Assembly (NCBI GenBank): GCA_000004985.1
Contig: GG738861.1
Length of the DNA stretch: 64,000 nt
Source of the DNA: Naegleria gruberi
Lineage: Eukaryota
Strand: one strand, 5' to 3'
The notes below the pieces were generated by a model. The model searched no databases, had not been told where the DNA came from, and saw only the letters and a list, made by a program, of their open reading frames with translations. Both the position numbers and the translations under genes were made by a program. The number at the start of each line of letters is the position of its first letter. Position 1 is the first letter of the stretch. Shown piece after piece: positions 21,908-63,322 of the stretch.

Positions 21908-23866
21908 TTGATAGAAGAGAGAATGTTTTCTAGTTTCGGAAATTCAGGGGAAGGTATTTCATTTGATGATTTCTTTGGATTTTCAGAGGATACATCATCA
22001 ACAGCAGCAACATCATCTACTCTGAATGTTGTTGTTCAGCAACAATCTGTCGCAGCTTCAATTGTTAATACGAATGAGAAGAAACAAGCTCAACCTTTGT
22101 TGCCTAAAAACAAGACACTTACTCATCAGCAACAACAGCAGCCATCTGTTGCTACTATGCCAAAGAAACCAGCAAAGGAAGTCATCGGTAGCAGTGAGGA
22201 AGAATCATCTTCCGATGATGATGAGGAAATGAAGGATAAGGTACAGCCTGGTGATGATTCCGATGAAGATGAAGAAATGAAAGAGAAGGAATATTCTTCT
22301 TCCTCCTCGAGTAGTGAGAGTAGCCAAGATGAGATTGAGGATATATCAATTCGGAAATCAACAAATATTGGAAAGCAAATTGTAAATGGTAATAAGGAGA
22401 ATCATAAACAATCAGTGAATACTGTGAAAAAAGCTCCTCCAAAGCAATCTAATATTCAACACATTTTGAATAAGGTGCCATCATCATCTAGTTCAGTACC
22501 GCAAATTGGAACGAAAAAGAAATTGTCACCACTCAAAGAAAAGAGAAATATCAAGGAAAAGACCGATAATTCAAAAAGAAAATTTATTCAAACCAAACTG
22601 GATAAGAGCATGTTTGAAAGGAGAGTTGAGCAGACACCTATGGATTCATCACTCTTTTGCATGTGCTGCAATACATTTGTTGCCTTAACAGGTGCATCAT
22701 CTCAAAACTCAGCAAAAAGAGTAAAGAAAGGTTCTTCTAAATATGAAGAATGGGATAAACATATAGAAAGTGAGGACCACTTGTTGAGGAAGGAGAGGCT
22801 GCAAAGACTCAATGTACTTTGCTTTATGAATAGCCCAACAAATAAGAGGTTTCATCATTTTGTAAATTCATTCTGTCTAATGTTTTTCCACCGAATTGAA
22901 ACACTAGCTATTGAATTTGCAAAAAAGAATAGAAAGAGAAAGTTTGAAATTTATGAGGAACATGAGGATTATATTCTGTTGGACTATGTCATTAATTTTA
23001 TTTATGCTCGAGTTGCAAATTTGCAATACGCAACCGATTTTGAAAAGATTTTGAAACAATTCTTAAATAATATGAGACAAGGCTCATTAAAGATTGCCAC
23101 CACAATTTGGGAACAATATAAGGAATTTTATTCCAAGATGAATGATGATGAGTTTGGTTATTTGCTCTCTGATATTGTACATCGAGCTTGGGATTGCATG
23201 AGACATTTGGCTTACTTTGGGAAAATTCAGGATCCAACTCAATTATTCATTGACGAGCCATTGGAATTCAAAGATTTTAAGAGTGAGAAAAAAGAATCAA
23301 GAGATGAAAGTGATTCTAGCTCCGATGATGAAGACTATGAAGAGCCAGAATATGACGAAGATGAGGAAGAGGAGGAGGACATTTTCAATGGTCAGCATCC
23401 TTACTTTGAAATGTTTATGAAAATGTACATTCAACACTTCTTATTTTTAAAGCCAATTGAGAAAATAATAAGTGAAGCTCTCGAACAATACAAATCCATT
23501 CTAGAAAAGGAGACCTTTTTCAATGAGTGGGAAGAAGAAATAGTGAAGAGAAAGAAGCTATTAATTTCACAGCAACAGATGTCAAGTAATGGCGGTAGTG
23601 CTGTAGATGATGAATCAAGTGATGAGAGTCCAACAATACCTCCACCAAAACCACAAGCTCCAAAGCAAAAATCAATTGAAGATTTGCTGTTTGGTTCAGC
23701 AGCCAACAATACCTTTGAGAGCTTCTTTTCTGTTAATACTACACCTCAAAAGGTAACAACTACAATCCAAACTCAAAGTAAGAAGAAGGCAGGAATATCA
23801 ACGCACGAGAATGAAACAATGGAAGAGGATGAAATGTGGAATTTACTAAGAAGAGATAATATTTGA
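21908..23866 (+). CDS. Hypothetical acidic/Ser-rich nuclear-type protein
   Basis: 652-aa ORF, long D/E/S tracts and K-rich stretches; conserved-looking central region (CMCCNTF...HIESEDH possible C2H2/matrin-like finger); no confident domain call. Confidence 0.35.
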   Translation: MIEERMFSSFGNSGEGISFDDFFGFSEDTSSTAATSSTLNVVVQQQSVAASIVNTNEKKQAQPLLPKNKTLTHQQQQQPSVATMPKKPAKEVIGSSEEESSSDDDEEMKDKVQPGDDSDEDEEMKEKEYSSSSSSSESSQDEIEDISIRKSTNIGKQIVNGNKENHKQSVNTVKKAPPKQSNIQHILNKVPSSSSSVPQIGTKKKLSPLKEKRNIKEKTDNSKRKFIQTKLDKSMFERRVEQTPMDSSLFCMCCNTFVALTGASSQNSAKRVKKGSSKYEEWDKHIESEDHLLRKERLQRLNVLCFMNSPTNKRFHHFVNSFCLMFFHRIETLAIEFAKKNRKRKFEIYEEHEDYILLDYVINFIYARVANLQYATDFEKILKQFLNNMRQGSLKIATTIWEQYKEFYSKMNDDEFGYLLSDIVHRAWDCMRHLAYFGKIQDPTQLFIDEPLEFKDFKSEKKESRDESDSSSDDEDYEEPEYDEDEEEEEDIFNGQHPYFEMFMKMYIQHFLFLKPIEKIISEALEQYKSILEKETFFNEWEEEIVKRKKLLISQQQMSSNGGSAVDDESSDESPTIPPPKPQAPKQKSIEDLLFGSAANNTFESFFSVNTTPQKVTTTIQTQSKKKAGISTHENETMEEDEMWNLLRRDNI

Positions 23867-23894
23867 ATATTTTCCAATAATTTTATTGAACTTG

Positions 23895-25184
23895 TTACCA
23901 ATCTCCATCTCTTACATCATTTGGATTCCAAACAGTTTTTGTTGTAATGACATTATTAATCTTTACAGATTGATTGTTTTGGGTTGAATAGCCATACTTT
24001 TGGATATCAACTTGCTTGACACTCTTTACATTGGAAAGAATGGAGCTTTCTCCAATAGTTCCCAAATTTTCATTATAGTGATCAAACCATGGATATTTGT
24101 ATGAAGAATAAGTCTTTGCACTGATTGGACATGGAGGGGCTTTTTCTCCTGTTATTTGTTGATACATGTCAGAGTTGACAATATGTACAAATACTCTTGA
24201 CTTGGTTCTTTCATCCCAAAATGATGGGCCATAAGGATCTTTAGCAATATCTTGTTTCATTTTACCTCCTGCTGCCAATCCCAATTCTTGTGCATTGCTG
24301 GATTGAGATCTACTTCTTTTTTCTTCACATTTAAGACTTGAAAGTGAACTTCTTGGCATTGCTGGTGAGCAACATTTCATTTGTGGAATACTTGCGGTTG
24401 AAGAAGTTGAAAACATTGTTGGTATTGGATAAGCTTGAGAAACTGGAGGAGAGTATGCAACAATGGATTTCTTTGTTGGAATGATTGAATGTTTCTTCTT
24501 TGGAGATGACCATGTTGTTTCATTCATTTCTGGAAACATTGATTTTGCCTTTTCTGAGAATGGATTGTAACAAATAATTTGAGCACCTCCTACTTTATCT
24601 TCTCCAGTAACCTGTGATTCGACAGTATATCCTTGTCCAAGTGGCATGGCAATGAATTGTTTGATTGTTCCATTTCCATTATTAATACCATCTAACCATT
24701 TTTGAGCTGGAGTGACACAATAATCTTGAACTTTTCTTGATTTGATTTCTTCATCCCATTGTTCTCCACTTAAAGCATTCACTTTACCAACAGCAACTTT
24801 GAGAGCATGAGGATTTGTGGAATTTTCAAATTCCATCCACATGGCTTCACGTTGGTGTAAACAAACAAATACACCACCTTTTTGTTTCCAGCTTTCAGGG
24901 ACTTTGTTAATATAATCATCTACTCTTTTGATTGGGAAGGTCCCCAAAGATGGAGGCAAGGGATAGATTTTCCCATCGTCAGGTATTCTTAAAGTTCTAT
25001 GTAATTTGATTTTCAATTCGTTTTTAGAGGTTTTGGCACTGTAAAATACAATCGAGTCATTGACAACCTTAATGGAAAGTTTGTTAGTTGGTTCTGAACT
25101 TGGAGGTTCGATTGGAAATTTAGGTGGACAATAAGTTGAGTTGGCATGCATAGGAGGACATGAAATTGGTATTCCAGTAAACAT
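23895..25184 (-). CDS. Hypothetical protein (429 aa), no recognisable domain
   Basis: Single long ORF with non-repetitive composition (MFTGIPISCPPMHANSTYCPPKFP...), convergent with upstream gene; likely real gene but function unassignable by eye. Confidence 0.4.
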   Translation of the reverse strand: MFTGIPISCPPMHANSTYCPPKFPIEPPSSEPTNKLSIKVVNDSIVFYSAKTSKNELKIKLHRTLRIPDDGKIYPLPPSLGTFPIKRVDDYINKVPESWKQKGGVFVCLHQREAMWMEFENSTNPHALKVAVGKVNALSGEQWDEEIKSRKVQDYCVTPAQKWLDGINNGNGTIKQFIAMPLGQGYTVESQVTGEDKVGGAQIICYNPFSEKAKSMFPEMNETTWSSPKKKHSIIPTKKSIVAYSPPVSQAYPIPTMFSTSSTASIPQMKCCSPAMPRSSLSSLKCEEKRSRSQSSNAQELGLAAGGKMKQDIAKDPYGPSFWDERTKSRVFVHIVNSDMYQQITGEKAPPCPISAKTYSSYKYPWFDHYNENLGTIGESSILSNVKSVKQVDIQKYGYSTQNNQSVKINNVITTKTVWNPNDVRDGDW

Positions 25185-25484: not shown

Positions 25485-28400
25485 TTATCTAAATTTTGGT
25501 TTTTCGTCAACTTCTGTTGGCTTGACCTTCTTAGTTGAAGATTCTGTTACATCAGCATCAAATAATGCTGAAGTTTCGTTTGGATTGGAATCACCAATAT
25601 TCCTTCTCTTTCTGTTTCCTCCAAACAATGACGATGTATTCAAAGAAGCAGTTTGAGGTGTTTTCAGTTCTTCAACATTTTCCTTATCTACTGGAGAAAA
25701 GTTTCTTGTTGTAATATTGGAAACTAACATCTTGGATCTTCCCATAATTGGTCTATCTTTGGTGAGGGCCGATTGGTTGAGATTGAGTGGAGTTGGAAGT
25801 GAAGCTGATTCACTTGTTGTTGGTCCTCGTTTAATGTAGAATGAGGTTCTGTCTCTGAGAGGTACTTCTGTTGGTGAGTGATTCTTCTCAAAATTGGTAT
25901 TTCCAAACAGAGCTGGTCTTGGTGGAGGATTAAATTGTCGTTTCATATCAGAAAGTTCTTTTTGAGCTCTTTGTAATTCATCCCTCAATTCATCATTTTC
26001 TCTCTTAATCTTTAATTGATATTGAATCTTTTGCTTGTGATTGTTGTGTCCAATTATCTTTTCATGATCTTTTCTTAATGATTCAAGCTCTTCCTTTAGA
26101 CTATTAACTTCAGTGACACTATCTGCATACTTTTGTCTCAAGCTTTCCAATGAAGCCTCTAATTGGTTCTTTTCCGATTTGTATTTTTCTTTCAACTTTT
26201 TCAATGTCTCTTCGTGAATCATTTGTTGTGAGAGGCTTCGTTTTTCGAGGGTAGATAATTGTTCTTTGCTCTCATCATAGTTATTTCTCAAATCGTTAAG
26301 GTCAGACTCTTTTCTCAAGAGGGTTTCTCTTTCAGTTTGAAGAGTTTTGACCAGACTTTCACACTTCTTTTCTACAGTGTTTAATTTTTCAGTCAATCTG
26401 GTGAATTCTTCTCCTGATTGCAATGAACGAATAGATTCCAATTGTTGTTCAATTTCATTTTGCTTGGATTTGATTTGATCTTCTAGAGATTCAATTGTGC
26501 TCAACAGCTTGATATTCTCATTGGAAGCACCATCACTTGAGGTTTTCAAAGCTTCTAATTGTCTTAGAGTTGAATTGAGTTTTTGATTGCTATTGTTCAA
26601 CTCTTGGCCTTTGCTATCGAGCTCAGTCTCGAGGTTAGACACTTGTTCTTCGAGTTTTTGCACTTCCTGTTCACGTTCTTGCAACTTTTCAATGCTCTCT
26701 TCAGCGAGTTGTGTAATGCTTTCATTGTGTTGTTGTACCTCAGAATACTTGCGCTTGAAACTTTCAAGTTCAGAGGTCAAATTAGAGATTTCTGTTTCCT
26801 TCAATTTGAGTTCAATATTTTCATTGATTAATTTATCGTTCAATTCTCTGAACATGGAGTCCTTTTCAGAGGAAATATTGTTGACAAGTTGAACTTGTTT
26901 CTCAAGAGCCAAGGTCAGTTCAGAAATTTGATCGGTGAATTGTGATTTGGATTGTTCCAATTCTTCATTGAGAATCTTGTTTGCTTCCATATTTTCGCCA
27001 AGTTCGAATTTCAATGCCTCAATCAATTCTTGAAGAGAATTGATTTGTTCCTCTCTTTCTCTTCTTAACTGTTCTTCGTTTTCCAATAGTTGTTTCTTTT
27101 CTTCCTCGGAGGTATTACCCATAGAGCTCAAGTGTTGTAAAAGGTCATCATTTCGTTCTTGTTCCAGAGCTAAGCATTGTTTAAGGTTGTTGATAGCATC
27201 TTCATGGGTTGATTTGATGGTTTGGAGAGTATTGAGGGCACTTTGATATTTTTCAGTCATTTCAATCAATTCCCTTTCCGATACTCGAGCACATTCCTTT
27301 AGTTTTTCATTTTCTTCAATGTAGGTAGTGATTTTACCGTTCATGGTTTGAATTTCTTCTACAAGTTGATTTTCACGATCTTGTAACTTGACAATACTTT
27401 CTTCAGCAAGTTGTGTAATACTTTCATAATTTTGCTCTGATTCAGAGAAGTTAATCTTAAGGGTCTCAATTTCGGAGGTTAGCTTTGATAATTCTGCTTC
27501 CTTCATTTTCAGGATTATATTTTCATTGTGAAGTTTTTCATTCAATTCTCTCAGTGTGATATCTTTTTCAGAGGAAATATTGTTGACAAGTTGAACTTGT
27601 TTCTCAAGAGCCAAGGTCAGTTCAGAAATTTGGTCGGTGAACTGTGATTTGGATTGTTCCAATTCTTCATTGAGAATCTTGTTTGCTTCCATATTTTCGC
27701 CAAGTTCGAATTTCAATGCCTCAATCAATTCTTGAAGAGAATTGATTTGTTCTTCGCTTTCTCTTCTAGATTTATCCTCGCTTTCAAGGAATTCTTTGTG
27801 AATTGTGTTGAGCTGTTCAAGTTCGTCGATTGTACTTTGGTATTTATCTTTCATTTCTGCCAAGTCTCTTTCAGATACTTGAATAGAATCCTTTAGCTTA
27901 TCATTGGCTTCACCATAGTGTTTGATTTGTTCAAAGGAGCTCATCAAAGCCTTCTCCTTCTCATCAAGTGCAGACATAAGCATACACTTGGTTGCCACTT
28001 CCTGTTCTAATTGAGAGGATAGAACAGTTTCCTTTTGTTGAGTTTGTTCAGCAAACATTGATTCTTTAGATTTGACTTCTTCAAGTTGAGACTTTAAAGA
28101 TTCAATGCTGGCATCTCTTTCAGATATAGATAGAAGTAACTCTTGCTCTCTGAAAGACAAAGTATCAATACTGGTATTAAGAGTTTCTATTACTACTTTC
28201 AGTTTGGATATTTCCTCATTGGATTGTTCATTCTCCTGCATAGATTCTCCAAATAGCTGTTCTGTGCTTTCTAACTGTTGTTTGAGAGCTTCAATCTCTT
28301 GGTGTGCGAGTATTAATTTAGACTCTGCCTCGTGTTTGGCCATTTCCTCACGTTCTCTCATTTCCTCCAACATTCTAATAGTTTCTTCTTGACCTTTTTG

Positions 28401-30773
28401 GACCATTTGTTGGTTTTCCAAACCTTCCAACATTGCTTCAATTTGAGTCCTCTCCTCTTTTAATTTGATATTTTCTGAAAGCATATTCTCCTTATCAGAT
28501 GCTACTTGTTCTAAAAGTTGCTTGATGCTCTCAAGCTCGCTCCATGCCATTTGCTCCTTTTCTTGGCTTTGTGTTATATCCTTCTTAAGTGAGGCAATAG
28601 TTTCCAAGGATTCCTCATACATTTGTTCTAACCTTGTTATTTCTCCTAACAGTGTTTGATTTTCACTGATTGCTACTTGTTCTTGGAGTATTGAAGAGTT
28701 TCTTCTGTGGCTCTTTTCCATGTCTTGAATTTTGTTGGCAAGTTGTTCCTTTTCGCCAGTTAAATGTCTGATTGAAAGCTCTAAACTTTGAATGTAGGAA
28801 TGTAATTCCTTAAACAACTCCTTGTTAGCTCCAAATTGCTTGGAAAATTGGGATTCATATGAATTAAGTTGATCTTTCAGTTCCATATTTTCAATCTTGA
28901 GCTGAATAACATCTGGATGTTGTTCAGGTGAGAGGGCCTTTTGGAGGGCACTGTCGGCTATAGAGAGGAATTGTTCTTCATTATCAAGTGTGAAATTTTC
29001 AAAATTGAATTTGGAAAACTTTTGTGGTGATTGTGGTCTATCAAAGTCAAAATCTAAACCAGAGACAAAATCTTGTTTTGGATTTTTCACTGATTTTCCA
29101 GTGAGTCTAGCGATCTTTGCCTCTCGCAATCTTAGCAAAAATCTAGTTGATGTTAATAAGCGATCCTTTGAGGATGCAACCTTCTTGAGCTCTTCAACAC
29201 GATGAGTAAGAATGGAATTCTTCTCCTCGTGTTCATCTGTCTGAGCAGAGAGATATACATGTTGTTGTTGTAATGCTATAATATATTGTTCCTTTTCATT
29301 TTCATCCATAGAAAGTTGTGGAGTAGGAGTTTGTGGAACTTCTGAAACTCGTTTGTTTGCCTCCAATAACTGTTTCCTCAGGAGTTTAATTTGTTCTTGC
29401 AAAAATGTAATACTTCCAGATGTCTCTTCATTGATTTTAGCTTCATTCTTAATTCGTTTAGCTCTTTGAGCAAATGTAAGAGTTGACAAGGATTCTGATA
29501 ATGAATTAATGGCAGGACTAATGTTCGCAATAACACAAGTCTTAGAATTCCCTCCAAGAGAATCCTTAAGTAAGAATGTTAATTTGCTATCTCTGTATTG
29601 TACATGCCTAGAAATACCATTAGCAACGTCAACTAGATCCTTGATAACTTTTCCTAGAGTAGAAAGAGACTTATTGATAGAACAAGCTTCTTTCAATCTG
29701 TCTCCTTCGGTATTAGATGTTGATTGTCTTTCCGAACCAGCAAGATCGATAAGATTAAGCCTAGATGTACGCGTTTTTGTTCCTCCCTCTGATGTTTCTT
29801 GTGATTTCATATAGATGGTAAAAACAGAATGAGAACGTGATGATTGATTATTCATAGATGTTGAGCCAACATGTCTATTTGATAGACCCTTCTTCAAAAT
29901 GGCTAAAGCTTCAACTGGTGTTGCAATATCCTCATGAATTAATTGTTCAACATAAACTCCAGATTTGATATCCTCTCTTAAATTTAAACTCTTGGATACA
30001 GTACCACCATTAAAAAGAGGTAATTTAGGTGTTGAATCCAATAAATCTGTAATTCTTTCGTTGTAAATTTCCAGAAATGAGCAACTGACAATAAACTTGA
30101 TTTCTTTTTGTTGTCTTTTCTTTTCAATTTCTGAAAATATGTATGATAGAACTCTTGGTATTAAACCTGCAGATGAAGGCAAGTGTAAATTGTGCATTGA
30201 TGACAACAAGTCATCTTCCATTACGTCGTCATTGTGTGACGTTCCCATAGTAAAAGTTTTACCACTTCCTGTTTGCCCATAACAAAAGATTGTACCGTTA
30301 TATCCAGCTAGATAACTATCCACTATTGGTTTGCCACAAAACTCGAACATATCTTTTTGTGTTGTTGTTGGGCTTGCTACGTGGTCGAAAGTAAAGGTTT
30401 TTGGTTTCTCTTTTGGATTATTGCTAATAACTTGAAGTGATCTTTTTGTTGCTGGATCTACTTGGATGCAATTTTGTGTTTCATTGTCAAAGAGTGGTCT
30501 AACTCTTACTACCACTCTCACACTCGATTTATCGTCATCATCTTTTGAAAATATTTCTGTCCTGTTGGTTGCAGACAGAGTTTCGTCATCACCTAAAGAA
30601 GGAAGAGGTGAGAATAATCCTCCTCTTGAGACTATTGGAGACACCATAAAGGATGGAGTTTGAATGTTTTGTCTTCTTGTTGTGAAGGAACTTGTTGTTG
30701 GAGAGGCAAGCATTCGTTCCAAATCTTGGGACGGAGAAAACACGCCACTCAAATTATTTAAATTATTCCTCAT
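25485..30773 (-). CDS. Kinesin heavy chain-like protein: N-terminal motor domain followed by ~1300 aa coiled-coil stalk (kinesin-12/KIF15- or CENP-E-like), contains internal tandem duplication
   Basis: Motor motifs SSVRVVVRVRPL, GQTGSGKTFTM (P-loop), SSRSHSVFTIY (switch I), LNLIDLAGSE (switch II); rest heptad-rich E/K/L/Q; segment REREEQINSLQELIEALKFELGENMEANKILNEELEQSKSQFTDQISELTLALEKQVQLVNNISSEKD occurs twice. Confidence 0.9.
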   Translation of the reverse strand: MRNNLNNLSGVFSPSQDLERMLASPTTSSFTTRRQNIQTPSFMVSPIVSRGGLFSPLPSLGDDETLSATNRTEIFSKDDDDKSSVRVVVRVRPLFDNETQNCIQVDPATKRSLQVISNNPKEKPKTFTFDHVASPTTTQKDMFEFCGKPIVDSYLAGYNGTIFCYGQTGSGKTFTMGTSHNDDVMEDDLLSSMHNLHLPSSAGLIPRVLSYIFSEIEKKRQQKEIKFIVSCSFLEIYNERITDLLDSTPKLPLFNGGTVSKSLNLREDIKSGVYVEQLIHEDIATPVEALAILKKGLSNRHVGSTSMNNQSSRSHSVFTIYMKSQETSEGGTKTRTSRLNLIDLAGSERQSTSNTEGDRLKEACSINKSLSTLGKVIKDLVDVANGISRHVQYRDSKLTFLLKDSLGGNSKTCVIANISPAINSLSESLSTLTFAQRAKRIKNEAKINEETSGSITFLQEQIKLLRKQLLEANKRVSEVPQTPTPQLSMDENEKEQYIIALQQQHVYLSAQTDEHEEKNSILTHRVEELKKVASSKDRLLTSTRFLLRLREAKIARLTGKSVKNPKQDFVSGLDFDFDRPQSPQKFSKFNFENFTLDNEEQFLSIADSALQKALSPEQHPDVIQLKIENMELKDQLNSYESQFSKQFGANKELFKELHSYIQSLELSIRHLTGEKEQLANKIQDMEKSHRRNSSILQEQVAISENQTLLGEITRLEQMYEESLETIASLKKDITQSQEKEQMAWSELESIKQLLEQVASDKENMLSENIKLKEERTQIEAMLEGLENQQMVQKGQEETIRMLEEMREREEMAKHEAESKLILAHQEIEALKQQLESTEQLFGESMQENEQSNEEISKLKVVIETLNTSIDTLSFREQELLLSISERDASIESLKSQLEEVKSKESMFAEQTQQKETVLSSQLEQEVATKCMLMSALDEKEKALMSSFEQIKHYGEANDKLKDSIQVSERDLAEMKDKYQSTIDELEQLNTIHKEFLESEDKSRRESEEQINSLQELIEALKFELGENMEANKILNEELEQSKSQFTDQISELTLALEKQVQLVNNISSEKDITLRELNEKLHNENIILKMKEAELSKLTSEIETLKINFSESEQNYESITQLAEESIVKLQDRENQLVEEIQTMNGKITTYIEENEKLKECARVSERELIEMTEKYQSALNTLQTIKSTHEDAINNLKQCLALEQERNDDLLQHLSSMGNTSEEEKKQLLENEEQLRREREEQINSLQELIEALKFELGENMEANKILNEELEQSKSQFTDQISELTLALEKQVQLVNNISSEKDSMFRELNDKLINENIELKLKETEISNLTSELESFKRKYSEVQQHNESITQLAEESIEKLQEREQEVQKLEEQVSNLETELDSKGQELNNSNQKLNSTLRQLEALKTSSDGASNENIKLLSTIESLEDQIKSKQNEIEQQLESIRSLQSGEEFTRLTEKLNTVEKKCESLVKTLQTERETLLRKESDLNDLRNNYDESKEQLSTLEKRSLSQQMIHEETLKKLKEKYKSEKNQLEASLESLRQKYADSVTEVNSLKEELESLRKDHEKIIGHNNHKQKIQYQLKIKRENDELRDELQRAQKELSDMKRQFNPPPRPALFGNTNFEKNHSPTEVPLRDRTSFYIKRGPTTSESASLPTPLNLNQSALTKDRPIMGRSKMLVSNITTRNFSPVDKENVEELKTPQTASLNTSSLFGGNRKRRNIGDSNPNETSALFDADVTESSTKKVKPTEVDEKPKFR
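26590..27070 (-). repeat. Intragenic tandem duplication, copy 2 (within kinesin coiled-coil)
   Basis: ~200 nt (26861-27062) nearly identical to 27561-27762 (a few mismatches), flanks ~70-80% identical; period ~700 nt. Confidence 0.8.
27290..27770 (-). repeat. Intragenic tandem duplication, copy 1 (within kinesin coiled-coil)
   Basis: See copy 2; direct repeat in same reading frame preserving heptad register. Confidence 0.8.
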
Positions 30774-31539: not shown

Positions 31540-33938
31540 ATGTACCCACACAGTGGAAGTATCAATACACCTGCTCATGATGAGTTTAATGATGATGAAT
31601 TCGACCGACTGGTGGGCCTATCACTGAATAAAATGTCTACGCTGACACCCAATAACAATAATAATCAACAAAATCAGTGGTATTTCTCTGATAATATGTT
31701 TGGAGATTTTAATTTAGGAGGAATGAATAATGGTGGTGTTACTAGTAGTTTGGATACAAGTCAGTTGGCTTTTACTCCACTCATTGAACAACATCGAAAT
31801 AATGATGATTGTTGCCAATTGAATACTACTAGCACTTTTGATATTGATAATGATATTGATGCCATGACAAACAAAACTACACCAACAACTCAAGGAAAAT
31901 CAAAGGAAAAGAAAAAGCCAAAGATTGCATGCGTTTATTGTAACAAATTGCACAGTATGTACTAGTCACAATATGAAATTCCTTAAACATTCAATTTTTC
32001 TCATTTTAGAAAAGTGTGATGGCGAATCTCCAAATGCTTGTACCAGATGTAAGAAGAAGGGTATTCCATGTGGTATGTAGTTTGTGTGAAAATCATTTTA
32101 AACTTATCATGTTAGTTTATTTACCACCTCAAAAGAGAGGTCCAAAGTCAAAGAAGAGAAAGGCAAATGATGGAGATGAGGAAGAATACACTGTAGAACA
32201 ATTAACATGTGCTGCTGGATTGTGTGCCAACCAAAATCAACAAATCCAACAAATTCAACAACAACAAGCTCAACAACAATTTAATGCTCCTGTATATTTC
32301 AATCAATCACCACCTCAACAAGCTCAACAAACTCAACAACAACAAATTGTACAACACCAAACTCAACAACCTCAAAAAATAGTTAGCTCTGTTGACTTGG
32401 ACTCTTACATTACTGAAGCTATTTTCTCTTCCAATAAGAATACTAATCCATCTACTGCTCTTACCAATTTCTATTCACAACCGCAACAACCTAGTCCACT
32501 TACAGGTCTCCAATTTGCAGTCAATGTTCATACAAGAACACTCGTCGATCAATTCTTAGAGTAAGTAGTATTTTCATGCATTCATGCATTAAACATTTCT
32601 AGTTCTGTGACATGCCACTCCCTTGTAGATAGAAACATGTTGGATAATGCCCTCAATAAGGCTGTTATTTTTTCATCTGAACCAACTGGTTACCAACTCT
32701 TAACAAATATTGTATGTGCAATGGGCGCTCAAAGATTAGAGGACAGAAAGAACTGTATTGAATTTTTCAATAGAGCAAGAAATCAAGCTAGTTACTTGTT
32801 TGATAAGCCATCTAGGGAAGCTTCATGTGCTTTGAGTTTGATGGGTATTTATGCTTGTTCAGAAGGTGAAAGAATCAAAGGTCACATGTACAACAGAATT
32901 GCTTTGGACATGTCTACGGACTTGTGTTCTTACCAAATTGAAACCGACAAGTATTACCAAACTCTTTCTGCTCTCTCATTGGCAACAACGTTCTCTAAAT
33001 GGTTGTTCGAGTTGAACATTCTCAAAGTTGAAGAAAATTCATTTGATTGCCTTCTTAAGAATGCCAATAATCCAAACCATCCTCAAATTCCATCCATTCG
33101 TGAACTTGTTAAAAATGTTAAAAACTATATTGGTTCTTCGAAGTGTATGCGCGAGATTGAAGAAATAGAAACCAAAATTGCCGATATGAGTCTTGTTAAG
33201 GGAAGTGAAGAAGTCTCTTTCACAGCCATTTTGGTTTACTACTTGTTGGTCTCAAGACTTGCCATGTTGACAAATAACCAAATCGAATATATCAAGATTT
33301 TGAGAAAATTAGAAACTATTGAAAAGTATATTGAATCAGAAAAGTTTAACAGAGATGATCTCCAAAAGAATGTGCACAGATTCTGTCTCTATTCTCTTAG
33401 ATCGGATATTTTGGTGAGATGTGGACTAGATAAGATGGGTTTACACTGTGCTACCAAGGCAACTGGTTTAGCAGCTAAGCCAACTTTCTGGAAGTCAGCA
33501 CCAGCTATTATTCTCTTCTTCCCTATCCTTATCAACATTAACCTTAGTGTTAATGATAGTAGTATGTCTATTGAAAATTACAAATCACTCAAGGTTATCA
33601 GCTCTAAATTTGTAGTTTTAAAATATACCCTATTTGATATGATTAATATCATGAATAAGAGATCAGAGTTTGCTGATCTCTTAGAGAGTGAAAGACAACA
33701 CGTTCCACAAGGTATTACAAATTCAAGTGGATATCTTCCATTCACTAATGATGTTCCTCAATGTGAATCATGTCCTCCACAGGATTGGAATACTAATATC
33801 TTTGACCAAAACAATAACAACGAGTCATGTTTCCCTAACTCTGATCTTACAGAATTATTGCAACAACTAGGAACTGTGAGCGATCATGAATCCTATCAGA
33901 ACAAGTTAGAATCGATATGGCAAACAATTGGTCAATAA
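31540..33938 (+). CDS. Zn(II)2Cys6 (Gal4-type) binuclear-cluster transcription factor with poly-Q region and C-terminal fungal-TF-like regulatory region; 4 exons (31540-~31953, ~32010-~32072, ~32107-32565, ~32605-33938)
   Basis: Spliced reading gives ACVYCNKLHSKCDGESPNACTRCKKKGIPC = CX2CX6CX5-8CX2CX6-8C Gal4 signature split by two GTATGT introns; followed by basic linker KRGPKSKKRK, Q-rich tract, and large C-terminal domain. Confidence 0.75.
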
Positions 33939-34140: not shown

Positions 34141-36277
34141 CTATTTAAAATTCTTCCAAAATCTGTCTCCATAAGAGAAGAGTAATTCTGAATGAATATC
34201 AATATCTTTCAATGCATAAATCCCAATCCTGTAATCATGTGAATTGGTGTCATACACAATTTTGGGGATGCAATTATTGGTTTTTGAAGTTCTAACCTTT
34301 CCTTGTGCATCATTGAGGAATCTTGATTCATTTCCTTTTCTAAACGCGTCCACACTCATATTTTCATTCAGTTCGAACAAATAACTCGATTCATACATGT
34401 CATAGATTACTGATCTTCTATTCTCTTCCAATATGGATACAATCTCACCAACATACTCCACTATCAGCTCGTCCTTTTTAATAGGCTCCAGAGAGAATAA
34501 ACCTAAACCATGCAGCTGACTGAATCCTACTGCACACCGTTTCATAAAGTGTTTAGAAAAACTATTCTGGCAACTATTCTTACAGTCACAATATCCAAAA
34601 CACGATCTCTGATACTTTTTACATGTACACTTAGCCCCTGCACAGTTGTGATTTTTGAATCTATTCTTTTCTGTAAAGCAATTACACAACTCTGTACAAA
34701 AGGTTCCATTCTTTACACAATTACATTCTGAAACGTTCATTATTGCACACTGACACGGGTTATAGAGCATTGGTTTGTGAAGATTGGGAAAGATAACCTT
34801 CTCAGGGTTGATTTTCTTAACAATTTGAGTTTCTAACATATCCAACTCTTCGGGCGTTAAGAATGATTTTGCCACACCTCTCATAATGGCCAACTCTTCT
34901 ACCTTGTTCTTGGGTGGAGATTTCCTTCTTGCCATTCTAATTTTGAAATTAAAGAACCAATCACAGATGAATTTCTTAATTTCTCTGCATGGACGAATGT
35001 GATGTTCTGCCATCTGACAAAAGACATCTCTATTGGAACACTTTGAATTGTTCATATTTTCCAAAAATCGTTCTCCATAGATAAAAACAGTATTAAGGGC
35101 AATTTCCTTATCATATTTCGTCCAATGGTCGTATGAATCTGATATTGATTCATCCTCAACACAATGCAGATAGCACTCTGATGAGCATGGTTTAAGAGAG
35201 TATTTTTTGTTGACAAGCAATGAGTTTTGAGTTTTGAATAGCTTTTCTAAAATAGAGCCAATAGATAATTCATTATTATATTCAGGGGTGGCTCTAGCAT
35301 CTTCTGGATCTCTAATGCATGTATCATACTCCACTCTGTGAATAGCACAATCAAATTTCATGCACTTGTAACAAAATAGCTTGGCTGTAATACTCCATAT
35401 CGATTCTAGTGATCCATTCCTATAAAATTCCCACAATAAATAATAATAATAATATGATGGATAAACTCTCAATAATTCACGTGTTAACCTACTTTGATTG
35501 AGATTTTTGCTCATTTTCCCTCTTGAAAATTGAATAGCTCGATAATTGTTCCTGGAACAGTTCCATAATTTTCAGTCTAAACTTTTTCCTATCATATTGT
35601 AAGTGTTCCTCTGCCATGACAAATAGTTCTTGATTCTCATTTTCATACTCCCTCATAAAATCCTCAGCCAGTAATTTTAACACTTCATCATTTTCACCAT
35701 ATTTTTCACTAATTCTTTCTACCATTGTTCGGTAAATAGTTTCGGCCCACAAATCCAAATAATATTTCATAAACTTGGAATATCCACTCTTTTTTGCAGA
35801 ATTATTTCCATTTTCTATAAAACTCAAATCATCAAAGTATTTCGAATATGATTGATAATCCACACAAAAATCATCATCCTTATATGGAATAAAGTCAACT
35901 GAAGCCTGTTCCTTTGCCATCTTATTCTTACACAAATATTCATAGTAGGTGTATTGTAATTGAAACATGCTATCAGGATACTCAGTTACTGATTTGTTTC
36001 TTCCTCTAGTTTTTGTTTTTAAAGTGATGGAAACTTGTTCCATTCCCTCTTTCTGTTCTTTCAATTGTTGAGAGTGCATATTTAGACTCTTTTGGAAAAT
36101 GGCCAAGTCTTTCATTCTGTGTTCCGTTTTGAATACATCGATATCCTCCTCTACTTGTTCCGAATCAATTTTGTGATGAGTTCTCTCTCGTTTACCTGAT
36201 GACGATGATATCTGGTTGTGGTGATGATTTTCCTGATGATGCATGCCGTCATAGTGATGGTGTGGAAGTAGATGCAT
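34141..36277 (-). CDS. Histone-lysine N-methyltransferase of the E(z)/EZH family (CXC pre-SET + SET domain); 2+ exons (35489-36277 N-terminal, 34141-35514 C-terminal)
   Basis: CXC-type Cys cluster CNCFTEKNRFKNHNCAGAKCTCKKYQRSCFGYCDCKNSCQNSF; SET domain GLGLFSLEPIKKDELIVEYVGEIV...RKGNESRFLNDA...NCIPKIVYDTNSHDYRIGIYALKDIDIHSELLFSYG matching EZH2 SET (RKGNKIRFANHS...GDHRIGIFAKRAI..EELFFDY). Confidence 0.75.
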
Positions 36278-63249: not shown

Positions 63250-63322
63250 CGCCCCACGTGGGGCTCGAACCCACGACCGTTGGATTAAAAGTCCAACGCT
63301 CTACCGACTGAGCTAGCGGGGC
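63250..63322 (-). tRNA. tRNA-Lys (anticodon UUU), no encoded CCA, no intron
   Basis: Minus-strand read GCCCCGC-TA-GCTC-AGTCGGTA-GAGC-G-TTGGA-CTTTTAA-TCCAA-CGGTC-GTGGG-TTCGAGC-CCCAC-GTGGGGC-G: 7-bp acceptor (one G-U), D arm, anticodon loop CUUUUAA, T arm GGGTTCGAGCCC; 73 nt. Confidence 0.85.

What the first reader, a model, noticed from the sequence alone, without database searches (positions are those of the whole stretch)
26590..27770. Kinesin coiled-coil carries a recent ~700-nt tandem duplication with a ~200-nt near-identical core
Nucleotides 26861-27062 and 27561-27762 are almost identical. The flanking parts of the two repeat units are only about 70-80% identical. At the protein level, REREEQINSLQELIEALKFELGENMEANKILNEELEQSKSQFTDQISELTLALEKQVQLVNNISSEKD is duplicated exactly, while the remainder of each unit has diverged (ITLRELNEKLHNENIILKMKEAELSK against SMFRELNDKLINENIELKLKETEISN). 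The pattern suggests an old duplication with later gene conversion of the core. Alternatively it is an assembly collapse or expansion artefact in a repeat-rich stalk.
Basis: seen in the sequence. Interest (0 to 1): 0.5.

Follow-up and report, generated by a model that had tools for sequence, protein, structure and literature searches.

The report
Gene-converted repeat in Naegleria kinesin-12 stalk
The stalk of a Naegleria gruberi kinesin-12 (KIF15-like) motor gene contains an old in-frame tandem duplication in which a roughly 200-base patch was later copied from one repeat to the other, a real but ordinary example of intragenic gene conversion.

Summary
The gene is an intronless 1762-codon ORF (window 25485-30773, minus strand), 100% identical to Naegleria gruberi kinesin D2VBC5, a KIF15/kinesin-12-like motor. 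Its helical stalk holds two head-to-tail units: unit 1 (aa 953-1150) and unit 2 (aa 1151-~1384).

A 207-nt core (27561-27767 and 26859-27065, offset 702 nt, not 700) differs at 6 third-codon positions. The flanks are 64-71% identical. Synonymous divergence is 0.06-0.14 in the core and about 1.5 (saturated) in the flanks. The boundaries are sharp. None of 100,000 permutations reproduces the patch.

The core is not especially conserved between species (28% aa identity to N. lovaniensis), so protein-level selection cannot explain it.

N. lovaniensis, a second Naegleria-like sequence and Willaertia each carry one copy, colinear with unit 2. Unit 1 is the derived copy and lacks a conserved 36-aa segment. 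An unidentified metagenomic relative independently amplified part of the same module 4-5 times.

Best reading: an old duplication specific to the N. gruberi lineage, followed by a recent gene conversion of about 190-207 nt. The title's word "recent" fits only the core. An assembly artefact is unlikely but cannot be excluded without reads. This is a known process, so interest is low.

The parts
25485..30773 (-). Intronless ORF of 1762 codons plus stop: Naegleria gruberi kinesin D2VBC5, kinesin-12/KIF15-like
   Evidence: ORF list. 100% identity and coverage to P0001, 'kinesin [Naegleria gruberi]'.
29451..30506 (-). Kinesin motor domain (aa 90-441)
   Evidence: Pfam PF00225, E = 1.7e-109. The best solved-structure match is the KIF15 motor at 333 bits, against 256 bits for the next family.
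27324..27917 (-). Repeat unit 1 (aa 953-1150, 198 aa): the derived copy, lacking the 36-aa conserved segment
   Evidence: Local protein self-alignment, phmmer domains and alignment with orthologues.
26622..27323 (-). Repeat unit 2 (aa 1151-~1384; homology to unit 1 is detectable to about aa 1379, window 26637): the ancestral-like copy, colinear with the single-copy orthologue segment
   Evidence: Unit 2 aligns over positions 4-231 to P0002 1167-1387 and P0003 967-1187. It aligns over positions 4-234 to P0005 1198-1434 in the pairwise alignment and over 4-194 to 1198-1395 by phmmer.
27561..27767 (-). Near-identical core, copy 1 (aa 1003-1071): the maximal conversion tract. The inner tract 27565-27752 has only 2 differences.
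   Evidence: Codon-by-codon comparison, 30-nt identity bins and mismatch coordinates, dS 0.056-0.14.
26859..27065 (-). Near-identical core, copy 2 (aa 1237-1305), 702 nt from copy 1
   Evidence: The 110-nt exact match is 26941-27050 = 27643-27752.
27096..27203 (-). 36-codon segment (aa 1191-1226, EDAINNLKQCLALEQERNDDLLQHLSSMGNTSEEEK). It is present only in unit 2 and holds the motif conserved in all orthologues.
   Evidence: The AlphaFold2 single-sequence model puts a helix break at SSMGN, aa 1218-1222.
27723..27747 (.). Perfect 10-bp stem with 5-nt loop (AATCAATTCT-TGAAG-AGAATTGATT) inside core copy 1. An identical hairpin lies at 27021-27045 in core copy 2.
   Evidence: Inverted-repeat scan. 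These are the longest perfect short-range inverted repeats in the gene. No function was tested.
25956..26195 (-). C-terminal coiled-coil motif shared with KIF15 (aa 1527-1606, ...GHNNHKQKIQYQLKIKRENDEL...)
   Evidence: BLASTP to KIF15 (P0072) aa 1297-1376, E = 6e-10. Weak Pfam HMMR_C hit of 19.7 bits, below the 28.6-bit cut-off.

Best explanation
In the lineage leading to Naegleria gruberi, after its split from the N. lovaniensis-type lineage, about 200-234 codons of the kinesin-12 stalk were duplicated head-to-tail and in frame. The two units then diverged for a long time. Synonymous sites became saturated, unit 1 lost a conserved 36-codon segment, and unit 1 drifted further from the orthologues than unit 2.

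Much later, one or more non-reciprocal homologous-recombination events (intragenic, ectopic gene conversion) copied a patch of about 190-207 nt from one unit onto the other. That erased both synonymous and non-synonymous differences in the patch. Since then only 2 differences (inner 188 nt) to 6 differences (full 207 nt) have accumulated.

Shown: the duplication, its restriction to this lineage, the mosaic identity, the sharp boundaries, and the lack of special protein conservation in the core.

Inferred: the conversion mechanism. The direction of conversion is undetermined. So is whether the edge differences reflect two nested events or patchy mismatch repair. The consequence for the protein is also inferred: the stalk is longer by about 198 helical residues, roughly 29 nm if it forms a coiled coil.
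For: - Mosaic identity. The core has 6/207 nt differences, and NG86 over codons 1004-1071 gives dS 0.14 and dN 0.006. For the inner 62 codons dS is 0.056. The flanks have dS about 1.5 and dN 0.28.
- Significance. 0 of 100,000 permutations match the patch; Fisher p = 6e-20; for synonymous changes only, p = 2e-4.
- Sharp boundaries. Identity jumps from 0.60 to 0.93-1.0 and back to 0.67 between adjacent 30-nt bins.
- No special conservation of the core between species. N. gruberi against N. lovaniensis is 28% in the core and 37% in the flanks.
- Lineage-specific duplication. In flank columns, unit 1 against unit 2 is 54% aa identical. Unit 2 against orthologues is 37-44% and unit 1 against orthologues is 31-32%.
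- Copy number. There is a single copy, colinear with unit 2, in P0002, P0003 and P0005. In 1.84 billion representative proteins, only P0001 matched with several strong stretches.
- Reading frame. The offsets are multiples of 3 (594 and 702 nt) and the ORF stays open.
- Machinery. Recombination and mismatch-repair genes are reported in Naegleria genomes (PMC9928731).
- Precedent in a relative. An independent expansion of the same module in a relative shows that this stalk segment tolerates repeat gain.
Against: - Only one assembly of one strain is available, and no reads or second N. gruberi sequence could be found. The physical reality of the two near-identical cores therefore rests on that assembly.
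- With only two copies and no close outgroup, the direction and number of conversion events cannot be resolved.
- A double unequal crossover cannot be formally separated from conversion.
Confidence: 0.8

Rival explanations
1. Assembly or consensus artefact. The two units exist, but their cores were homogenised by pooling reads, or a unit was spuriously inserted or expanded by the assembler.
For: Repeats in coiled-coil stalks are classic trouble spots for assemblers. No independent N. gruberi sequence of this gene was found in any collection searched.
Against: - The units have unique flanks 29-36% diverged at the nucleotide level, plus a 36-codon indel. They are therefore neither alleles nor a duplicated read pile.
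- The cores retain six differences, so they were assembled separately.
- The window has no Ns.
- The genome was Sanger-sequenced (PMC9928731). Sanger reads of about 700 nt (my own knowledge) would span the 207-nt core into unique sequence.
- The frame is preserved over 5.3 kb.
Confidence: 0.07
2. Two reciprocal exchanges (a double unequal crossover), or a more recent partial re-duplication that replaced the homologous segment, rather than a single non-reciprocal conversion.
For: The end product, a patch with two boundaries, is the same as. The clustering of four of the six differences within 15 nt of the tract ends hints at more than one event.
Against: - A single unequal crossover gives one breakpoint and changes copy number. 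Here there are two sharp breakpoints and the register is preserved exactly.
- Two crossovers only 200 nt apart are less parsimonious than one conversion tract. That judgement rests on established knowledge of recombination and was not tested here.
Confidence: 0.07
3. The core is held identical by selection at the nucleotide or protein level, for example through an embedded RNA or DNA element or a strictly constrained binding site, rather than by a recent copying event.
For: - A perfect 10-bp hairpin lies in each core.
- The ELIEALK-type motif at the start of the core recurs in orthologues and in every well-matching P0004 copy.
Against: - Synonymous sites are also identical (5 of 67 identical-aa codons differ in the core, against 23 of 67 in the flanks).
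- The core protein is only 24-31% identical to orthologues, no better than the flanks.
- The core RNA does not fold unusually well (z = -1.21).
- In P0004 the equivalent copies have pS of 0.57-0.74.
Confidence: 0.04

Closest known systems
Intragenic concerted evolution of tandem repeat units by gene conversion or unequal crossing-over. Examples are spider AcSp1 silk repeats (PMC3933166, PMC3563967) and the WD repeats of Podospora hnwd genes (PMC2873952). All three papers were seen only as titles and abstracts.
   Same: In-frame tandem units inside one coding sequence are homogenised at the nucleotide level, synonymous sites included, by homologous recombination between units.
   Different: Here there are only two units, and only a patch of about 200 nt (roughly 30% of the unit) is homogenised. 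The remainder is saturated with substitutions. This is a single conversion island in an otherwise old duplication, not array-wide homogenisation.
Kinesin-12 / KIF15 (Xklp2) family
   Same: - The N-terminal motor is most similar to KIF15: best PDB hits at 333 bits, and the best non-heterolobosean database hits are named KIF15.
- It has a long helical stalk.
- It has a C-terminal motif, GH(N/Q)N..QKIQY..K.EN, that aligns to the C-terminal end of KIF15.
   Different: - At 1762 aa it is longer than animal KIF15 (about 1390 aa).
- About 150 further residues follow the C-terminal motif.
- The Pfam HMMR_C match is below threshold.
- The duplicated stalk module has detectable relatives only in Naegleria and Willaertia.
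- No functional data on this protein were found in the papers searched.
Interlocus (ectopic) gene-conversion tracts between diverged paralogues, detected as mosaic identity by GENECONV-type run tests (own knowledge of the method)
   Same: A short tract (tens to hundreds of nt) of near-identity with sharp ends is embedded in diverged homologous sequence and detected by excess run length.
   Different: Donor and acceptor lie 702 nt apart within the same exon rather than in separate genes.

Membership tests
Kinesin superfamily | Kinesin motor domain (PF00225) above the curated threshold | tested here: met
   366 bits against a cut-off of 29.3, covering aa 90-441 and the full profile (1-327 of 327).
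Kinesin-12 (KIF15/Xklp2) | Motor domain closer to KIF15 than to any other kinesin family | tested here: met
   KIF15 chains score 333 bits; the next family (kinesin-2 OSM-3/KIF3B) scores 253-256 bits. The best annotated hits outside Heterolobosea are KIF15. No formal phylogeny was built.
Kinesin-12 (KIF15/Xklp2) | C-terminal coiled-coil / leucine-zipper motif of the KIF15/HMMR type (PF15908) | tested here: inconclusive
   The pairwise alignment to KIF15 aa 1297-1376 has E = 6e-10 and shares GHxNxxQKIQY..K.EN. The Pfam HMMR_C score is 19.7 bits, below the 28.6-bit gathering cut-off.
Kinesin-12 (KIF15/Xklp2) | Spindle function and TPX2-dependent targeting | not testable with these tools
   Needs localisation and biochemistry. 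No data on this protein appeared in the papers searched.
In-frame intragenic tandem duplication | Two adjacent, head-to-tail homologous units in one ORF, with an offset that is a multiple of 3 | tested here: met
   Unit 1 is aa 953-1150 and is followed directly by unit 2, which starts at aa 1151. Offsets are 198 and 234 codons. phmmer E-values are 1.7e-57 and 2.4e-58.
In-frame intragenic tandem duplication | Single copy in outgroups (lineage-specific gain) | tested here: met
   There is one matching segment in each of N. lovaniensis P0002, P0003 and Willaertia P0005. The two units are closer to each other (54%) than to any orthologue (at most 44%).
Gene conversion tract | Significant excess of identity in a contiguous tract relative to the flanks, including synonymous sites | tested here: met
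   Core dS is 0.056-0.14 and flank dS is about 1.5. 0 of 100,000 permutations match. For synonymous changes only, Fisher p = 2e-4.
Gene conversion tract | Identity not explained by stronger functional constraint on that tract | tested here: met
   Core aa identity to orthologues is 24-31%, not higher than the flanks at 28-44%. RNA folding z = -1.21.
Gene conversion tract | Phylogenetic incongruence: the tract groups by species while the flanks group by copy, in two or more species that carry both copies | not testable with these tools
   No second species or strain carrying both units was found.
Gene conversion tract | Both copies physically verified by reads | not testable with these tools
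   No read data are accessible. The exact protein is not in the contig index.

The most novel reading that the evidence does not exclude
The converted patch may not be a neutral accident. It could mark a partner-binding or register-setting module of the kinesin-12 stalk whose presence in two identical copies per chain is favoured. In that case repeated conversion, perhaps initiated at the perfect 10-bp hairpin inside the core, keeps the copies matched. The same stalk segment would then be a recurrent hotspot of repeat gain in heteroloboseans, as the independent 4-5-copy expansion in a metagenomic relative suggests. The nested pattern of edge differences would then record ongoing homologous recombination in an organism whose sexual cycle has never been observed.
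Probability: 0.1. Interest if true: 0.35.

Novelty: new member of a known kind. Interest (0 to 1): 0.2.

Why it matters
The finding matters little beyond this gene.

It is a clean, statistically unambiguous example of an intragenic conversion island inside an old stalk duplication. It also shows that the length and repeat content of the kinesin-12 stalk vary among Naegleria-type amoebae (one, two, or four to five copies of the module).

There are three practical consequences:
- Annotators and anyone designing primers, probes or knock-down reagents for this gene should know about the 110-nt exact repeat.
- Short-read assemblies will break at that repeat.
- The derived unit lacks the most conserved motif of the module, which is a useful handle if the stalk is ever dissected functionally.

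The finding does not open or settle a long-standing question.

Tried and rejected
(1) Stalk-only protein search. Searching aa 940-1400 in the word-indexed database returned nothing, not even the protein itself. I take this to be a tool limitation with low-complexity coiled-coil words, not a biological result.

(2) Exact-protein look-up of P0001 in the contig index: not on record.

(3) Scan of JGI metagenome contigs with the two-unit protein. It gave 29 pattern matches, none confirmed. No independent N. gruberi or close-relative sequence was obtained, so neither the assembly nor the timing of the conversion could be cross-checked.

(4) Tandem Repeats Finder. Its longest period is 500, so it did not report the repeat. 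The repeat was found by the repeat finder and by direct alignment instead.

(5) A whole-protein BLASTP self-comparison returned only the trivial self-hit. It was replaced by a split local alignment.

(6) Structured-RNA hypothesis for the core: rejected, z = -1.21.

(7) Bacterial promoter and terminator scan. It is irrelevant to a eukaryote and was at chance level.

(8) Recent conversion among the repeats of P0004. There is only a mild dip in pS (0.31-0.40) around the ELIEALK motif, against 0.57-0.74 overall. That is not convincing.

(9) Direction of conversion. It cannot be inferred, because the core is equally distant from the orthologues in both copies.

(10) Literature. No mention of this gene, of kinesin-12 or of KIF15 was found in the two Naegleria cytoskeleton papers checked.

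(11) The 101-codon antisense ORF at 26587-26892 (+) overlaps only unit 2 and has no counterpart in unit 1. I treated it as spurious.

Full report
**What is there**

The finding lies inside one long ORF on the minus strand, window 25485-30773, of 1762 codons. The product is 100% identical over its full length to the annotated Naegleria gruberi kinesin D2VBC5 (P0001). The gene model is therefore a single exon.

Pfam finds a kinesin motor domain at aa 90-441 (366 bits). The closest solved structures are KIF15 motor domains at 333 bits, against 256 bits or less for any other family. The best annotated hits outside Heterolobosea are KIF15.

A tail motif at aa 1527-1606 (...GHNNHKQKIQYQLKIKRENDEL...) aligns to the C-terminal end of KIF15 with E = 6e-10. 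The Pfam HMMR_C model stays below its threshold, at 19.7 bits against 28.6. I therefore call the protein kinesin-12-like, with the tail criterion only partly met.

The region around the finding (aa 940-1400) is predicted to be almost entirely alpha-helical (single-sequence AlphaFold2, mean pLDDT 74.7). That fits a stalk.

**Checking the observation**

The two quoted ranges do not align at the stated 700-nt offset: only 49 of 202 positions match. At an offset of 702 nt the identity is 97.5%.

Codon-by-codon comparison gives a core of 207 nt at 27561-27767 (aa 1003-1071) and 26859-27065 (aa 1237-1305). It has six differences, all at third-codon positions. Five are synonymous and one changes Ser1006 to Arg1240. 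The longest exact nucleotide match is 110 nt.

Outside the core, identity is 64-71%, with 30-nt bins ranging from 0.47 to 0.80. The transitions are abrupt: 0.60 to 0.93-1.0 on one side and 0.87 to 0.67 on the other.

Unit 1 is aa 953-1150 (window 27324-27917). Unit 2 follows it directly, at aa 1151-~1384 (window 26622-27323). A 36-codon segment is present only in unit 2, so the offset is 594 nt at first and 702 nt afterwards.

This is the only long direct repeat in the 64-kb window, and the window contains no Ns.

**Is it more than chance or constraint?**

- Nei-Gojobori estimates give dS = 0.14 and dN = 0.006 for the core. For the inner 62 codons dS is 0.056. The flanks give dS about 1.5 (saturated) and dN = 0.28.
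- In 100,000 permutations of the 129 differences over 579 aligned positions, no replicate had a 204-nt window with 5 or fewer differences (the minimum seen was 22). No replicate had an identical run of 110 nt or more (the maximum seen was 57).
- Fisher's exact test gives p = 6e-20. Restricted to codons with identical amino acids, the core has 5 of 67 codons differing and the flanks 23 of 67 (p = 2e-4).
- The core is not a specially conserved part of the protein. Across species it is 24-31% identical, no better than the flanks at 28-44%.
- The core RNA does not fold unusually well (z = -1.21).

Protein-level or RNA-level constraint therefore does not explain the patch.

**History of the duplication**

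Four full-length orthologues were recovered:
- N. lovaniensis (P0002)
- a Logan-assembled relative about 75-79% identical to N. lovaniensis in this segment (P0003)
- Willaertia magna (P0005)
- an ENA metagenome contig (P0004)

Unit 2 aligns end to end with a single segment in each of P0002, P0003 and P0005. Unit 1 matches the same segment more weakly. An exhaustive HMMER search of 1.84 billion representative proteins with unit 2 found four proteins at E <= 0.001: P0001 with 3 stretches, P0003 and P0005 with one each, and a weak fourth hit (P0121, 322 aa, E = 3.2e-06, 23% identity).

In flank columns the two N. gruberi units are 54% identical to each other. Identity to the orthologues is only 37-44% for unit 2 and 31-32% for unit 1. 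The duplication therefore arose in the N. gruberi lineage after it separated from the N. lovaniensis-type lineage.

Unit 2 keeps the ancestral layout. Unit 1 is the derived copy. It has lost the 36-aa segment that carries the motif best conserved among orthologues (ND.L...S[IM]G..SEEEK), which coincides with a predicted helix break. Because flank dS is saturated, the duplication is old. The word 'recent' fits only the core.

**Repeat number among orthologues**

P0004 carries four to five tandem copies of a ~99-aa unit (297-300 nt period). This unit corresponds to the first half of the N. gruberi module, including the ELIEALK-type motif. Those copies are old (pS 0.57-0.74) and show at most a mild dip in pS around the motif. 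The same stalk segment has therefore expanded independently in two lineages and is single-copy in three others.

**Mechanism**

The most economical account is an old in-frame tandem duplication followed by a recent intragenic gene conversion.

The minimal tract is 27565-27752 (188 nt, 2 differences). The maximal tract is 27561-27767 (207 nt, 6 differences). Four of the six differences lie within 15 nt of the tract ends. That could reflect two nested events or patchy mismatch repair; this is inference.

Naegleria genomes are reported to encode the recombination and mismatch-repair proteins needed (PMC9928731). Direction cannot be inferred, because the core is equally distant from the orthologues in both copies. 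A perfect 10-bp hairpin lies inside each core, but I have no evidence that it plays a role.

**Rivals**

- *Assembly or consensus artefact.* This is the only rival that would make the feature unreal. Against it, the units have unique, strongly diverged flanks and an indel, the cores retain six differences, the frame is intact, and the genome was Sanger-sequenced (PMC9928731). I could not examine reads, and I found no independent N. gruberi sequence. I leave it about 7%.
- *Double crossover or partial re-duplication.* This gives the same product and is hard to separate from conversion (about 7%).
- *Nucleotide-level selection.* The tests above argue against it (about 4%).

**Comparison with what is known, and verdict**

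Intragenic homogenisation of tandem units by conversion or unequal exchange is well documented. Examples are spider AcSp1 silk repeats (PMC3933166, PMC3563967) and Podospora WD repeats (PMC2873952), all seen as search results.

The present case differs only in scale. There are two units, and about 30% of the unit is homogenised. I found no description of this gene's repeat in the literature searched. It is therefore a new instance of a known process in a kinesin-12-like gene.

The feature is real with high probability, but ordinary. Interest 0.2.

Noticed in passing
L001:5067-6365 (P0004 aa 1023-1455; ENA metagenome ERZ27315067, contig k141_2142091): An unidentified Naegleria-like orthologue has 4-5 tandem copies of a ~99-aa unit (297-300 nt period). 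The unit is homologous to the first half of the N. gruberi repeat unit. This is an independent, old expansion (pS 0.57-0.74) of the same stalk segment.
   Followed up: yes
window 27723-27747 and 27021-27045: A perfect 10-bp stem with a 5-nt loop (AATCAATTCT TGAAG AGAATTGATT) lies inside each converted core and encodes INSLQELI. These are the longest perfect short-range inverted repeats in the gene. Whether the hairpin relates to recombination initiation is unknown.
   Followed up: partly
window 27096-27203 (aa 1191-1226): The motif ND.L...S[IM]G..SEEEK is the best-conserved part of the module across Naegleria and Willaertia. It coincides with a predicted helix break (SSMGN). It is deleted from unit 1. 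It may be a hinge or an acidic Ser-rich phosphorylation site; this was not tested.
   Followed up: partly
window 27711-27770 vs 27009-27068 (aa 1067-1087 vs 1301-1321): The single-sequence AlphaFold2 model gives a low-confidence, broken helix just after core copy 1 (aa 1067-1087). The equivalent stretch after core copy 2 is modelled as continuous helix. This may be a modelling artefact.
   Followed up: no
window 26587-26892 (+): A 101-codon antisense ORF overlaps unit 2 only and has no counterpart in unit 1. It is probably spurious.
   Followed up: no
window 31540-33938 (+): Three consecutive ORFs on the + strand (141, 182 and 443 aa) look like exons of one intron-containing gene. The middle ORF (182 aa) is Gln-rich. 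The first and third ORFs have no Pfam match; the middle one was not scanned.
   Followed up: partly
window 21908-25184: Two neighbouring ORFs (652 aa on +, 429 aa on -) immediately downstream of the kinesin have no Pfam family at E <= 0.001. The first is rich in acidic and serine runs.
   Followed up: partly
window 34141-35514 (-): A 457-aa ORF with a C-terminal SET domain (PF00856, E = 1.7e-16).
   Followed up: no
window 63250-63322 (-): A tRNA-Lys (anticodon TTT), the only tRNA gene in the window.
   Followed up: no
(query window 26574-27956, minus strand): The word-indexed protein search with the stalk segment returned no hit at all, not even the source protein P0001. The exhaustive HMMER search with unit 2 did find P0001. 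Negative results from the word-indexed tool on coiled-coil queries should not be trusted.
   Followed up: partly
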